Shown: positions 29,466 through 34,154 of the stretch, one piece after another
Layout of the letters: the number at the start of each line of letters is the position of its first letter
Numbering within the stretch: position 1 is the first letter of the stretch
Assembly: GCF_009914755.1 (NCBI RefSeq)
Contig: NC_060928.1
Origin: the human T2T-CHM13v2.0 reference genome, Homo sapiens
Strand: one strand, 5' to 3'
Length of the DNA stretch: 64,000 nt
Position numbers and translations under genes: made by a program
Notes under the pieces: model-generated
Told to the model about the DNA's origin: nothing
The model's database searches: none
The model's input: the letters and a program-made list of their open reading frames with translations, nothing else

Positions 29466-29766
29466 TGTATCAAAGTTCTCTAGAGAAACAGAACAAGAGA
29501 GCAATATTTATTTTAAGGAATTGTTTCATGCAATTGTGGGGGCTGGAAAGTCCAAATTCTGCTGGGAACCCGGAGAAGAGTTGACATGGCAGCTCCAATC
29601 CAAGGAGTCTGGAAGCCGGATTCCCCCTTACTTGCGGATCTCAGTCTATTTCTCTCAGGGCCTTCCATTAATTGGATGAGGCCCACCCACATCACGGAGG
29701 GTCGTCAGCTGTACTCAGAGTCTACTGATTTAAATGCTAATCTCATCTTTAAAATACCTCACAGCA
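29466..29766 (+). mobile_element. MLT2-like (ERVL) LTR, left part, interrupted by the SPIC/L1 insertion; strand as read against the recalled consensus
   Basis: Motifs ttctctagagaaacagaac, gattggatgaggcccacccacat (here aattggatgagg...), tctactgatttaaatgctaatctcatc. Confidence 0.75.
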
Positions 29767-29871
29767 GGGTGGTGCTGACGTGCGTTTCAGAGGACAGGGA
29801 AGGTTATATCCACATCGTACAGCGGATGCTACACTGGACACGGATGGGTAGAATCATCCATTCAGTGAAGC

Positions 29872-30493
29872 ATGACTTGTGTTGAACAAGACAAGCTGGC
29901 TGAAGCATTTGAAGGCGCTTTTGAGGTACTGAGGTAACATTCAACTGATCTTCACTCCTCCCCAGATGACAAAAATTACCTGGCTTTCGTCAGCCACTGT
30001 CCTCATGTCAGAGGAAATTCCATCTGCTAAGAAGTGTTGCCCACAGAGGAACCTGTGTATAGCTGGAGAACCATCATAGCAGGAAGAAGCTCTGACCGTT
30101 TTAATACCTTCACGAATCCCCACATAATGCTAAGATGGTGTCTTGTATCCAGGAGTAGATAAAACCAAAGATGTCTTTCTGTTTGTATTGAAAAATAAAG
30201 AAAAACTTTAGGGAAAAAGAAAAGTCAGCCAGAACCCCATGGCTTACTCAGAAAATTGTCAGGGCCCTGAGGAATTATGGAAGAACTGGAGAAATCACCA
30301 AAATCCAGAGGAAGCTGACTTACCAACTTACCAAGGCCATCCTCCAAAGACTCTATCTTATTTATTAGGGAAAGCAATCTTCTACTCACAGTATGTTCAG
30401 CCTGATCAAGAATATCTTAGTTTAAATAACTAGAATGCAAATTGTAACTATACATGTGCCAATTACCATGAGTTAAGTCACCCTGATTGCTAA
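29872..30493 (+). pseudogene. SPICP5: Processed pseudogene of the ETS factor SPIC (Spi-C)
   Basis: ATG at 29872 reads [70 protein letters not shown]-domain remnants follow ([51 protein letters not shown]), then the C-terminus [17 protein letters not shown]...HELSHPDC*. Intronless with stops and frameshifts. Parent identity is firm; the number 'P5' is recalled and unverified. Confidence 0.9.
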
Positions 30494-30979
30494 ATATACT
30501 CTCACGTTTCATGGTTTCCTGGCATCAGAAATCCCTACAAGCTTCAGGATTTTTCTCTTAAAGCAAATGCTGAAGAGAAAAAAAAAATTAACTTTATTAT
30601 TGTTATCTTTTATCAAATAGCATAGAATCTATACTAACTTGGTGGGAAATCCTGCCAATGAACAAATTTATTGTTGCAAATGACCAAGCCCTATGTGAAT
30701 GTACAGACTAAATGGCCTTGCTCTTACTATTCTCTATTCAACCACTTTCTTCCAGATTCATACTGCCAGTACAGGCAACTAATAATGATTCAAACATTTT
30801 TCTGTCATATACTCAGGTGAAAAATCACTCTAACCTATATCTGCTGGCATTACAAAAAATCATTTACAAAAAACGACTGCATATGATAAAAGCGTTTGTG
30901 CAAAAATACATTCATGGCTTCAAAAACTTCAGTGGAAATGTATATTCAGTTCCCTTCTCACATTTTTTTCCTTTTCCCC

Positions 30980-33150
30980 TTGTCTTTAAATCTTACTTTT
31001 TTTTTTTTTTTTTTTTGCTTTTAAGAGACAGAGTCTCTTTCCATTGCCCAGACTGTAATTCAATGGCGTGATCATAGCTTACTGCAAACTCGAACTCCTG
31101 GGCTCAACTAATCCTCTCGTTTTAGCCTCCGAAGTGGCTGGGACTACAGGCACACACCACCACATCTGGCTTTTTGCTGTTGGGATGAGGTTTCACTATG
31201 TTGCTTAAGCTGGACTCAAACTCCTGGCCTCAAGCAATCCTCTTGCCTCGGCATCCCAAAGTGTTAGCATTACAGGTATGAGCCACCATGCCCAGTCTCT
31301 TACCCATATTTTTTTTAATGTTTTCTTGCTGTTGAATTTTTTGAGTTCTTTATATATGTTGGATATTAACCCATCAGATGTATGAATTGTAAATATTTTC
31401 TCCCAATCCATAGGTTGTCTTTGCACCCTGTTGTTTCTTTTGCTATGCAGAAGCTTTTCAGTTTGATGTAATCCAATTTATCTATATTTGCTTCTCTTAC
31501 CTGCACTTTGGGGCCAAATCCAAAAAGTCACTACCCAGACTAATGTTGTGTAGTCTTTCCCCTATGTTTTCTTCTAGTAGTTTTAGAGTTTCTGGTCTTA
31601 TATTTAGCTCTTTAATCCATTTTGAGTTGATTTTTTATATGGTGTGAGATAAGGTTCTAGCTTCATTCTTTGACATGTGAAAATTCAGATTTCCCAACAC
31701 CATTTATTGAAGAGGCTGTCCTTGTCTTCTTGGCACCTTTGCTGAAAATTAGTTGGGTTCATTTCTGGGCTCTTTATTCTGTTCCACTGGTATTTGTGTC
31801 CTGTTGTTTTGTTTTTGCCAACTCTAAGCTGTTTTAAAATTACTATAGCTTTGTAGTACAGTTTAAAATCAGGTAGTGTGGTATCTCCAGCTTTGTCCTT
31901 TTTGCTCATGATTGCCTTGGCTATTCGTGGGTTTTTATGGTTCTATATGAATTATAGGATTTTTTTCTCTTTCCATAAAAAAAATGATGTTGGGCTTTTG
32001 AAAGGGATTACATTAAACATGTAGATTTACTTGGGTAGTATGGACATTTTAACAATATTAATTCTTCCAATCCATGAACATGGAATATCTTTGTCTTCTT
32101 GAATTGATTTCATTGATGTTTTATAGTTTTCTGTGTACAGGTTTTTCACCTCTGTGATAAAAATTATTCCTTAGTATCTTATTTCTTTGTAGCTATTGTA
32201 AATGAGATTATTCTCTTGATTTCTTTTTTCGGATAGTGTATTGTTAGTGTATAAAAATGCTACTAATTTTTGTGTCTTGATTTTGTGTCCTGGAACTTTA
32301 CTATATTCATTATTAGTCCTAACAGTTTTTTTGGTGGAGTCTGTAGGGTTTTCCACAGATAAGATAAGGTTGCCGGCCAGGTGCAGTGACTCACGCCTAT
32401 AATCCCAGCACTTTGGGAGGCCGAGGCAGGTGGATCACCAGATCTGGAGTTCAAGACCAGCCTGGCCAATATGGTGAAACCCTGTCTCTACTAAAAATAC
32501 AAAAATTAGCTGGGCATGGTGGCTCATGCCTGTAGTCCCAGCTGCTCAGGAGGCTGAGGCAGGAGAATCGCTTGAACCCAGTAGGTGGAGGTTGTAGTGA
32601 GCTGAGATCGCACCACTGCACTCCAGCCTGGGTGACGGAGCAAGACTCCATCTCAAATATATATATATATATATATCGAATAAAGTTGCCATCAAACAGT
32701 AACAATTACACTTCTTTTCCTATTTGGATGCCTTTTCTTTCTTTCTCTTGCCTAATTGCTTTGGCAAGGACTTTCAATACTATATTTAATAGAAGTGGGA
32801 AGAGTAGGCATCCTTGCCTTGTTCCATATCTTACAGGAAAGGCTTTCAATTTTTTACCATTGAGTATAATGTTAGCTGTGGGCTTCTCGTTATATATGGC
32901 CTTTATTGCGTTAAGGCACATTCTTTCTTTTTTTCTGTTTTACATTTTCACTCAGTGGTACCCTTGAAGGGATATATTCCTTCTACATCTAATTTGCTGA
33001 GTTTTTCATCATAAAATGATGTTGAATTTTATCAAATGCTTTTTCTGCATCTAATGAGATGATCATATGGTTTTTTTATTCTATTAATGTGATGTATCAC
33101 AATTATTGATTTGTGTATATTGAACCATCCTTGCATTTCAGGGATAAAAA
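30980..33150 (-). mobile_element. Inverted 5' segment of a twin-primed L1MA-type element (ORF2 remnants), with two later Alu insertions
   Basis: Minus-strand ORF2 peptides: [10 protein letters not shown]...LFNKWCW (31685..31909), [28 protein letters not shown] (32706..32921), QPMDWEKIF (31205..31426). Confidence 0.85.
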
Positions 33151-34061
33151 CATTTCTCAAAAGAAGACATACAAATGACCAACATCACTAGTCATTAGAG
33201 AAAAGCAAACTAAAGCCACAGTGAGATATCATTTCTCATTTGTCTGAATATCTTTTATCAAGAAGATGAAAGATAAGTGTTACCAAGGATGTGGAGAAAA
33301 GGGAACCCTTGCACACCATTGGTAGGAATGTAAATTGGTACAGCCATTATGGAAAACAGTATAGAGGTTCCTCAAAAAAACTACAAATATAATTGCCATA
33401 TGATCCAGCAATCCCACTTCTGGGTTTTACCCCAAACATCTGAAATCAGTTTGTTGAAGGGATGTCTGTAGTCTCATGTTCATTGCAGCATTATTCACAA
33501 TAGCTAAGTTATGAAATCAACCTAAGCGTTTAACAGATGAATAAAGAAAATGTGGTATATATACACAATAGAATACTATTCAGCCTTAAAAACAAAAGAG
33601 ATTCTGACATTTGTGAAAAATTGGATGGAATTTTAGAACATTATGCTAAGTGAAATAAGTAAGGACCAGAAAGACAAATACCATATGTTCTCACTTACTT
33701 GTGGAATCTCAAACAATTGAACTTATAGAATCAGAGAGCACAACAGTGGTTATAGAGGCTGGGGGTGTGGGGAATGGCCAAAGAGTATAAAATCTCAGAC
33801 TAGAAGAATTTTTTTTCTTTTTTTGAGTTCTTTGCACATCATGGTGAATACAGTTAATAATAGAGTGCTGTACATTTCCAAATTGTAAGAGAGTAAATTT
33901 AAAATGATCTCATTCAAAAGATGTTAAATATTTGAGGTGATGGATATGTTAACCAGCTTGATTTAATTATTCCACACTGCATTCATAGATTATAACACAA
34001 CTTTGCATGCTATAAATCTGCGCAATTATAAATTGCCAGTTTATCATTATAAAAAGAAAAA
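33151..34061 (+). mobile_element. Non-inverted 3' end of the same L1MA-type element (L1MA4A-like) with A tail
   Basis: Starts catttctcaaaagaagacatacaaatg; L1MA-type 3'UTR (gaggtgatggatatgttaaccagcttgatttaattattccac); ends in aaaaagaaaaa. Confidence 0.85.
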
Positions 34062-34154
34062 AAAATACCTTCACAGCAACATTCAGACTGGTATTTTACC
34101 AAATATCTGGGTAATGTGGCCTACCCAAGATGACACATGAAGTTAACCATCGCA
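34062..34154 (+). mobile_element. MLT2-like LTR, right part
   Basis: aaaataccttcacagcaacattcagactggtattttaccaaatatctggg...gacacatgaagttaaccatcgca continues the LTR from exactly where the left part stops. Confidence 0.75.

What the first reader, a model, noticed from the sequence alone, without database searches (positions are those of the whole stretch)
29751..34078. One TSD pair encloses a SPIC mRNA copy joined to a twin-primed L1MA: a 4.3-kb composite retro-insertion
Seen: aaaatacctcacagca (29751-29766, preceded by ttt, a TT/AAAA L1-endonuclease site) recurs as aaaataccttcacagca (34062-34078) right after an A tail. The MLT2 LTR is continuous when the intervening DNA is removed. Between the copies lie a 105-nt leader, the SPIC CDS and about 490 nt of presumed 3'UTR, an inverted L1 segment (30980-33150) and the matching L1 3' end (33151-34061). 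I see no SPIC poly(A) tail and no separate L1 TSD at about 30980. Inference: all parts arrived in one event, either from a long SPIC transcript polyadenylated in an L1 downstream of the parent gene, or by template switching between L1 and SPIC RNAs.
Basis: partly seen in the sequence, partly recalled or inferred. Interest (0 to 1): 0.8.

Follow-up and report, generated by a model that had tools for sequence, protein, structure and literature searches.

The report
SPIC retrocopy with L1-bearing 3'UTR
This 4.3-kb block is one ordinary processed pseudogene, copied from a long SPIC messenger RNA whose tail already ran through an old inverted L1 element next to the parent gene on chromosome 12, so it is not a chimera made during insertion.

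Summary
AAAATACCTCACAGCA (29751-29766) recurs as AAAATACCTTCACAGCA (34062-34078). In 8 of 11 other genomic copies of the flanking LTR, this 17-mer occurs once and joins the two flanks. The block between the repeats is one retrocopy of a spliced SPIC transcript with a long 3' end.

The intron-bearing parent gene (G000 C12:101.436-101.451 Mb) has, directly after its last exon, the same 3' flank, the same inverted L1 arm and the same direct L1 arm. That L1 has its own target-site duplication (TSD) at the parent locus, AAAAACTTTAGTGG. The window keeps only the left copy (30922-30935) and ends in the L1 A-tail.

A second retrocopy on chr17 (6.83 Mb) has its own TSD, the same first bases, the same inversion junction and the same L1 end. 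All five SPIC retrocopies reach into the L1.

So the read-through (long 3'UTR) option is supported, and template switching and sequential insertion are rejected.

- The inverted arm starts at 30936, not 30980.
- Two later Alus (30997-31297 and 32375-32670) interrupt it.
- A 110-nt exon is precisely skipped.

This is a tidy example of a known kind. Its modest extra value is that the five copies form a dated series of snapshots of the parent 3'UTR.

The parts
29560..29750 (.).
   Evidence: A repeated element: 1550 candidates in the genome. It is continuous with 34079-34150 in 8 of 11 other copies.
29751..29766 (+). Left TSD of the retro-insertion, AAAATACCTCACAGCA, after ttt
29767..29851 (+). 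Leader from SPIC exon 1 (parent C12:101435607-101435691)
   Evidence: 80% match of 29774-29847 to PAR 9615-9688. The chr17a and chr11 copies start within a few bases of the same parent position.
29852..29874 (+). Short form (internal AG acceptor) of the small ATG-bearing exon; ATG at 29872-29874
   Evidence: parent exon at PAR 12003-12049, followed by gtaag.
29875..30078 (+). Two coding exons (parent PAR 12699-12793 and 14733-14847), fused without intron
30079..30493 (+). Coding part of the last exon (decayed ETS domain) up to the stop. The 110-nt exon PAR 17947-18056 is missing exactly at the 30078/30079 junction.
   Evidence: Weak Ets hit, E 0.0055, below the cut-off. The parent exon gives Ets at E 2.8e-26.
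30494..30921 (+). Unique SPIC 3'UTR / 3' flank
   Evidence: Collinear with the parent last exon and its downstream DNA. No L1 similarity beyond shuffled controls.
30922..30935 (+). Left copy of the TSD made by the L1 when it inserted at the parent locus (AAAAACTTCAGTGG)
   Evidence: Its partner AAAAAAACTTTAGTGG follows the L1 A-tail only in the parent. The left copy is present in WIN, chr17a and chr5.
30936..33150 (-). Inverted L1 arm (ORF2 3' part, antisense), interrupted by two Alus
   Evidence: Weak RVT_1 hit on the minus strand at 32709-32939, E 8.9e-4. Same inversion junction as chr17a.
30997..31297 (-). Alu 1, an older window-specific insertion with a 6-nt repeat tcttac on both sides
   Evidence: Absent from chr17a and chr5. 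The parent's Alu sits about 20 nt further along.
32375..32670 (+). Alu 2, a younger window-specific insertion with flanking repeat ataaggttgcc / ataaagttgcc
   Evidence: 80-86% identity to other Alus, against about 70% for Alu 1.
33151..34061 (+). Direct L1 arm (3' end of L1) with A-rich tail A5GA5
   Evidence: 76-77% identity to the parent's direct arm, against 69-71% to unrelated L1 copies.
34062..34078 (+). Right TSD, AAAATACCTTCACAGCA
34079..34150 (.). Right part of the interrupted LTR

Best explanation
Window 29767-34061 is one full-length, L1-mediated processed pseudogene of a long-3'UTR SPIC mRNA.

The inferred sequence of events:
- An L1 inserted by twin priming (inverted 5' arm, direct 3' arm, own TSD AAAAACTTTAGTGG) about 430 nt downstream of the SPIC stop codon on chr12.
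- SPIC transcripts then ran through this L1 and ended at the L1's own AATAAA and A-rich tail.
- One such transcript started at the normal start site, used the short ATG exon, skipped a 110-nt exon, and ended in the L1 tail.
- The L1 machinery reverse-transcribed it at a TT/AAAA nick in an LTR inside a ZFYVE28 intron, which created the 16/17-nt TSD.
- Two Alus were inserted later.

Shown here: the collinearity with the parent, the parent-only second copy of the L1 TSD, the shared inversion junction, and the independent sister retrocopies. Inferred: the timing, the germline or early-embryo expression that made the copies heritable, and whether the 3' end came from true polyadenylation or from priming on the genome-encoded A-tract of the L1.
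For: (1) The parent gene has introns and an intact ETS exon. The window copy joins the exons at the parent's exon borders.

(2) The parent's downstream DNA has the same order and orientation as the window. L023 3100-3423 matches window 30722-31037. L023 3763-4068 matches the inverted arm 31319-31573. L023 4116-5331 matches the direct arm 33189-34017. Identities are 76-80%, against 68-71% for unrelated L1 copies in the same loci.

(3) At the parent locus, the sequence after the L1 A-tail reads AAAAAAACTTTAGTGG. The same 14-mer, AAAAACTTTAGTGG in chr17a and AAAAACTTCAGTGG in the window and chr5, sits directly before the inverted arm. Neither the window nor chr17a has the second copy after its tail.

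(4) The chr17 (6.83 Mb) copy has its own TSD (AAAATTAAAGT / AAAATAAAGT). It starts at the same transcript position, carries the same inversion junction, and ends at the same L1 end.

(5) An Alu with the same site, orientation and TSD lies in the direct arm of both the parent and chr17a but not of the window, which shows the empty site at 33595-33605. The copies were therefore drawn from the parent at different times.

(6) All 5 retrocopies extend past the L1's left TSD into the inverted arm. The chr11 copy ends there, with AATAAA, A16 and a perfect 16-nt TSD.

(7) The tree of the 6 sequences puts the window's end branch at 0.12 and the parent trunk at 0.10. SPIC-part and L1-part identities to the parent are alike.
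Against: - The A-rich tail in the window (A5GA5 before the TSD) is no longer than the parent's genome-encoded L1 tail (A6GA7). There is thus no separate trace of an added poly(A) tail. The 3' end could instead reflect priming on the internal A-tract of a still longer transcript.
- The present parent lacks most of the inverted arm and the inversion junction, the equivalent of window ~31600-33190. The full match therefore rests on chr17a and on chr11/chr17b, which continue past the parent's deletion point.
- One small character conflicts with the Alu-based order. A ~40-nt local duplication is shared by the window, the parent and chr11, but is absent from chr17a and chr5.
- No other mammalian genome could be searched, so neither the empty site nor the age was checked directly.
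- I did not see the annotated 3' end of present-day SPIC mRNA.
Confidence: 0.93

Rival explanations
1. Template-switch or RNA-ligation chimera. During one insertion, L1 reverse transcriptase copied an L1 RNA and then jumped to an unlinked SPIC mRNA, or the two RNAs were ligated first.
For: One TSD pair encloses both parts, and there is no poly(A) between them. Such L1 chimeras are known for U6, other small RNAs and some mRNAs (passages of bioRxiv 10.1101/2025.02.02.635956).
Against: The two parts are contiguous in the parent genome, separated only by the L1's own left TSD. The same junctions recur in an independent copy with another TSD. According to the passages read, known template-switch chimeras have both parts in the same orientation, whereas here an inverted arm lies between them.
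Confidence: 0.01
2. Two sequential insertions at this site. A SPIC retrocopy came first, and a twin-primed L1 later landed in its poly(A) tail, with an all-A TSD that cannot be seen.
For: A-tails are favoured L1 endonuclease targets (general knowledge, recalled). An all-A TSD would be invisible. Alu 1 sits near the junction and could hide traces.
Against: The L1 here is the same insertion as the one at the parent locus and in chr17a. It has the same left TSD, the same inversion junction and higher identity than unrelated L1s. The same L1 event cannot have happened three times independently. SPIC homology to the parent continues without an A-run up to the L1.
Confidence: 0.01
3. Same single event, but the template was not a polyadenylated mRNA. 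A longer read-through SPIC transcript was primed internally on the genome-encoded A-rich tail of the L1.
For: The window tail A5GA5 and the chr17a tail are no longer than the parent's encoded A6GA7.
Against: An AATAAA lies directly before the tail in the parent. Two independent copies end at the same place. Old poly(A) tails commonly shrink (recalled). The chr11 copy shows real polyadenylation in this 3'UTR, with AATAAA followed by A16.
Confidence: 0.05

Closest known systems
L1-mediated processed pseudogenes (retrocopies of spliced mRNAs)
   Same: It is intronless, with exon junctions at the parent's borders. It runs full length from the transcription start, has an A-rich 3' end and a 16/17-nt TSD at a TT/AAAA site, and the copy is decayed with stops.
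   Different: The copied 3'UTR is unusually long (about 3 kb before the later Alus) and consists mostly of a pre-existing inverted L1. In isolation the copy therefore looks like a gene-L1 chimera. The RefSeq row SPICP5 (hub table) covers only 29872-30490, that is 619 of about 4295 bases.
Twin-primed (5'-inverted) L1 insertions
   Same: The inverted arm ends, and the direct arm begins, at the same L1 position with about 6-7 nt overlap. The pair is flanked by a TSD at the chr12 parent locus. The structure is as described in the abstract of PMC2837659 (listing).
   Different: The twin priming did not happen at this site. Here the inverted arm is not next to the TSD of the insertion, and only one copy of the L1's own TSD is present.
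L1 chimeric insertions by template switching or RNA ligation (U6/L1 and mRNA/L1 chimeras)
   Same: A non-L1 RNA part at the 5' side and an L1 3' end at the 3' side, within one TSD pair (passages read).
   Different: The parts are genomic neighbours in the source locus, so no RNA recombination is needed.
Host genes that use a transposable-element poly(A) signal
   Same: The SPIC transcripts that gave rise to the window and chr17a copies ended at the L1's AATAAA/A-tail. The chr11 copy ended at an AATAAA inside the antisense arm.
   Different: Usage is inferred from fossil retrocopies only. I have seen no transcript data. That such exaptation is common is recalled, not taken from a call.

Membership tests
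L1-mediated processed pseudogene | Exons joined at the parent's splice borders, no introns | tested here: met
   the exon 1, ATG exon, two coding exons and last exon are contiguous. One 110-nt exon is precisely absent.
L1-mediated processed pseudogene | A TSD flanks the whole copy at an L1 endonuclease-type site | tested here: met
   a 16/17-nt TSD after ttt, present once in 8 of 11 other LTR copies.
L1-mediated processed pseudogene | Poly(A) tail at the 3' end, not encoded at the source | tested here: inconclusive
   The tail A5GA5 is no longer than the parent's encoded A6GA7.
L1-mediated processed pseudogene | The sequence is collinear with one transcript of one source locus from start to end | tested here: met
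   The part deleted in today's parent is bridged by chr17a, chr11 and chr17b.
Twin-primed L1 insertion at this site | The inverted arm abuts the left TSD of the insertion | tested here: not met
   1169 nt of SPIC sequence (29767-30935) lie between the TSD and the inverted arm. The feature is met at the chr12 locus instead.
Twin-primed L1 insertion (at the parent locus) | The two arms are adjacent parts of one L1 in opposite orientation, with a small overlap or gap | tested here: met
   against a contiguous unrelated L1 in L019. The inverted arm reaches the 'acatttc' position at which the direct arm starts.
Template-switch L1 chimera | The parts derive from unlinked RNAs | tested here: not met
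   The parts are contiguous on chr12.
   No repeat-family library was available. The element types are supported only by weak RVT_1, by matches to other L1 copies, and by 1550 genomic candidates for the LTR flank.

The most novel reading that the evidence does not exclude
The five human SPIC retrocopies form a time series drawn from one evolving locus. The end branches run from 0.12-0.14 down to 0.03 substitutions per site.

All five reach into the L1 that sits behind SPIC, and they use at least two L1-derived 3' ends: the sense L1 tail, and an AATAAA in the antisense arm.

Together they record, in order:
- a 546-bp insertion;
- three Alu insertions;
- a late ~1.5-kb deletion in the parent 3'UTR.

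This would mean that for tens of millions of years the heritable (germline or early-embryo) SPIC message has been terminated by an L1. It would also mean that SPIC was expressed in cells ancestral to the germline throughout primate evolution. That fits its reported expression in the pre-lineage embryo and inner cell mass (passages read).
Probability: 0.6. Interest if true: 0.4.

Novelty: new member of a known kind. Interest (0 to 1): 0.28.

Why it matters
The finding turns an apparent gene-L1 chimera into an ordinary retrocopy. It also illustrates a trap: a retrocopy whose 3'UTR contains an older transposable element mimics a template-switch chimera or a nested insertion unless the parent locus is inspected.

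On the practical side, the annotated pseudogene SPICP5 (619 bp) is only about one seventh of the real insertion. The ancestral left TSD of the parent's L1 is better preserved in the old retrocopies than in the parent itself.

The set of five copies gives a cheap internal chronology of the SPIC 3'UTR. It also gives indirect evidence that an L1 supplies SPIC's poly(A) sites.

Tried and rejected
- Literature: 'SPIC' with 'processed pseudogene' gave 42 papers, of which 10 were listed; none was about these copies, judging by title or abstract start. 'SPICP' returned only spICP-MS chemistry papers among the 10 listed of 301. I therefore found nothing in print on the structure of the SPIC pseudogenes. 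Only these two searches bear on that statement.
- Two searches failed on term format. The first was replaced and the second was dropped.
- Pfam on window ORFs gave only sub-threshold hits: Ets E 0.0055 and RVT_1 E 8.9e-4, with 6 of 8 fragments giving no hit. Identity therefore rests on DNA collinearity.
- I tested whether the inverted L1 arm continues to the left of 30922. Local alignment of 200 nt upstream of the L1 TSD, in three copies, against a contiguous L1 scored no better than shuffles: 43, 71 and 49 of 200 shuffles reached the observed scores. The idea was rejected.
- I first took Alu 1 to be shared with the parent, because blast ran on to 31037. The sequences show that the parent's Alu is a separate insertion about 20 nt further along.
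- The 3' ends and TSDs of the chr5 and chr17b copies were not resolved, because later insertions and rearrangements intervene.
- The order of the three old copies is unresolved in the tree.
- No non-human genome was available, so neither the orthologous empty site nor the L1 at SPIC in other mammals could be checked.
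Full report
**What is in the window.**
The sequence shows AAAATACCTCACAGCA at 29751-29766, preceded by ttt, and AAAATACCTTCACAGCA at 34062-34078, directly after an A-rich run. The two differ by one inserted T. A local alignment of the two boundary stretches scores 14, and 21 of 19,937 random stretch pairs from this repeat-rich window do as well.

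Context gives a stronger test. The left flank 29560-29766 is a dispersed repeat (1550 candidates, 40 scored). I compared both flanks with 11 other copies:
- In 8 of 11, the right-flank match starts 15-17 nt before the left-flank match ends. The LTR is therefore continuous there and the TSD sequence occurs once.
- In 1 of 11, something else is inserted between the flanks.
- 2 of 11 lack the right part.

The TSD pair and the interrupted LTR are therefore real.

**The source gene.**
The window's own genome could be searched. Window 29767-30990 finds an intron-bearing locus at C12:101,438,698-101,449,345, plus four other intronless copies: C17:6.83 Mb (here chr17a), C5:0.049 Mb, C11:33.92 Mb and C17:36.14 Mb (chr17b).

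The chr12 last exon encodes an intact ETS domain (Pfam Ets, E 2.8e-26). It is closest to PU.1, Spi-B and SpiD among solved structures. With the hub's label SPICP5, this is the SPIC gene. The name itself comes from the hub table, not from a call.

With the young chr11 copy as a guide (94-99% identical to the parent), the parent exons in 'PAR' coordinates (C12 = 101,426,000 + p - 1) are:

| Exon | PAR coordinates | Note |
|---|---|---|
| Exon 1 | about 9608-9692 | |
| Optional exon | 10533-10640 | present in chr11 and chr17b only |
| Small ATG exon | 12003-12049 | has an internal AG |
| Coding exon | 12699-12793 | |
| Coding exon | 14733-14847 | |
| Coding exon | 17947-18056 | 110 nt; skipped in the window copy |
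| Last exon | from 21500 | |

The window copy joins exon 1, the short form of the ATG exon, the next two coding exons and the last exon. The 110-nt exon is missing exactly at the exon borders (30078/30079). The template was therefore an exon-skipped, spliced transcript. The window, chr17a and chr11 copies all begin within a few bases of the same parent position, so they are full-length copies from the transcription start.

**The decisive comparison.**
Downstream of the parent's last exon, the order and orientation are the same as in the window:

| Parent (L023) | Window | Feature |
|---|---|---|
| 1502-2251 | 30079-30735 | last exon and 3' flank |
| 3100-3423 | 30722-31037 | 3' flank |
| 3763-4068 | 31319-31573 | inverted L1 arm |
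| 4116-5331 | 33189-34017 | direct L1 arm |

These matches are 76-80% identical. Unrelated L1 copies in the same loci match the window's L1 at 68-71%.

The parent L1 ends in ...acAATAAAaaagaaaaaaa, followed by CTTTAGTGG. The same AAAAACTT(T/C)AGTGG lies directly before the inverted arm in chr17a (exact), the window (30922-30935) and chr5. In today's parent the left copy has drifted to aaaaacatcactag.

So the L1 has its own TSD at the parent locus. The retrocopies carry the left copy as part of the 3'UTR, and they stop in the L1 tail before the right copy.

Against a contiguous unrelated L1 (in L019), the inverted arm ends at the 'acatttc' position where the direct arm begins. This is the twin-priming pattern, and it was produced once, on chr12. 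Sequence to the left of the L1 TSD is no more L1-like than shuffled controls. The inverted arm therefore starts at 30936, not 30980.

**Independent sister copies.**
- chr17a has its own TSD (AAAATTAAAGT / AAAATAAAGT) in another LTR-like repeat. It starts at the same bases, contains all coding exons, has the same long inverted arm and the same inversion junction (...gcattYcagRgataaaR|acatttctcaaaag), and ends at the same L1 end.
- chr17a also shares with the parent an Alu at the same site, in the same orientation and with the same TSD in the direct arm. The window has the empty site there (33595-33605). The window copy was therefore made before that Alu entered the parent, and chr17a after it. 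Neither copy can derive from the other, because the window lacks an exon that chr17a has.
- The chr11 copy ends inside the inverted arm, after an AATAAA, with A16 and a perfect 16-nt TSD AAAAACTGAGTGATAT.
- chr17b and chr5 also extend into the inverted arm, but their 3' ends are obscured.

All 5 retrocopies thus show that the SPIC message ran into the L1.

**Chronology.**
On 1289 ungapped columns, the K2P distances to the parent are:

| Copy | K2P distance to parent |
|---|---|
| Window | 0.207 |
| chr17a | 0.212 |
| chr5 | 0.239 |
| chr17b | 0.092 |
| chr11 | 0.045 |

The ML tree gives end branches of 0.12 (window), 0.13 (chr17a), 0.14 (chr5), 0.059 (chr17b), 0.030 (chr11) and 0.015 (parent). 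Two inner branches are well supported. The order of the three old copies is unresolved.

The structural markers nest accordingly:
- A 546-bp segment is present in chr17b, chr11 and the parent only.
- An Alu near the start of the inverted arm is present in chr17b, chr11 and the parent.
- One Alu, and the deletion of the window-equivalent ~31600-33190, are found in the parent only.

With recalled neutral rates for the human lineage (about 1.3-2 x 10^-9 per site per year), 0.12 corresponds to roughly 60-90 million years. This figure is an inference, not a measurement.

One character does not fit. A ~40-nt local duplication is shared by the window, the parent and chr11 but is absent from chr17a and chr5 (note 3).

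**Later events in the window.**
- Alu 1 (30997-31297, minus strand) is about 70% identical to other Alus. It has a 6-nt flanking repeat, tcttac.
- Alu 2 (32375-32670, plus strand) is 80-86% identical to other Alus. Its flanking repeat is ataaggttgcc / ataaagttgcc.
- Both are absent from the sister copies at those sites.

**Rivals.**
A template-switch or ligation chimera (mechanisms as in the passages of bioRxiv 10.1101/2025.02.02.635956) is excluded because the parts are neighbours in the source genome. The same reasoning excludes a later L1 insertion into the retrocopy's tail.

One question remains open: whether the 3' end reflects true polyadenylation at the L1 signal, or priming on the L1's encoded A-tract. 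The window's tail (A5GA5) is no longer than the parent's encoded one (A6GA7).

**Why the copies are heritable.**
This point is inferred. Passages read in Development 2019 (PMC6467473) and in bioRxiv 10.1101/2024.02.05.578945 report SPIC expression in naive pluripotent cells and in the pre-lineage embryo and inner cell mass of human, macaque, mouse and guinea pig. L1-mediated copies made at that stage could reach the germline.

**Verdict.**
The object is a normal processed pseudogene whose copied 3'UTR already contained a twin-primed L1. Interest is low to moderate. It corrects the extent of SPICP5 (about 4.3 kb rather than 619 bp), warns against calling such composites chimeras without inspecting the parent locus, and provides a five-point fossil series of the SPIC 3'UTR.

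Noticed in passing
window 33945-34507, minus strand: The hub table lists this as an exon of other ZFYVE28 transcripts. On the minus strand a polypyrimidine tract plus CAG ends at 34508, inside an older L1 fragment. An ATTAAA lies at 33967-33962, 17 nt before the annotated end at 33945, inside the antisense 3' end of the retrocopy's direct L1 arm. The retro-insertion therefore seems to supply the poly(A) signal of an alternative terminal exon of its host gene.
   Followed up: partly
L021 (C11:33918000-33927999), reverse strand positions about 2906-2921 and 6061-6092: The young SPIC retrocopy on chr11 has a perfect 16-nt TSD (AAAAACTGAGTGATAT) and an A16 tail. It is preceded by an AATAAA that lies within the antisense L1 arm of the SPIC 3'UTR. 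This is a second, L1-derived poly(A) site.
   Followed up: yes
L023 (C12:101446000-101455999) about 4060-4130: The present-day SPIC locus has lost the equivalent of window ~31600-33190, which is most of the inverted L1 arm and the start of the direct arm, at a (TTTC)n microsatellite. The chr11 and chr17b retrocopies still carry sequence beyond that point.
   Followed up: partly
L022 (C17:36135000-36144999) about 10113-10150 in the joined L022+L037 stretch: Inside the inverted L1 arm of the chr17b SPIC copy there is a short stretch that I recall as the reverse complement of the 5' end of U2 snRNA. The identification is from memory only.
   Followed up: no
window 34158-34201: TCCAACTTTGTTCTTTT occurs twice around a T-run, at the border between the LTR and an older antisense L1 fragment (family D1). 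It may be a TSD or a slippage product.
   Followed up: no
window 30957-30996 with 31304-31316; PAR about 23330-23375: A ~40-nt local tandem duplication just inside the inverted L1 arm is shared by the window, the parent and chr11, but is absent from chr17a and chr5. This conflicts with the order given by the shared Alu. Collapse of the repeat in two copies is the simplest explanation.
   Followed up: partly
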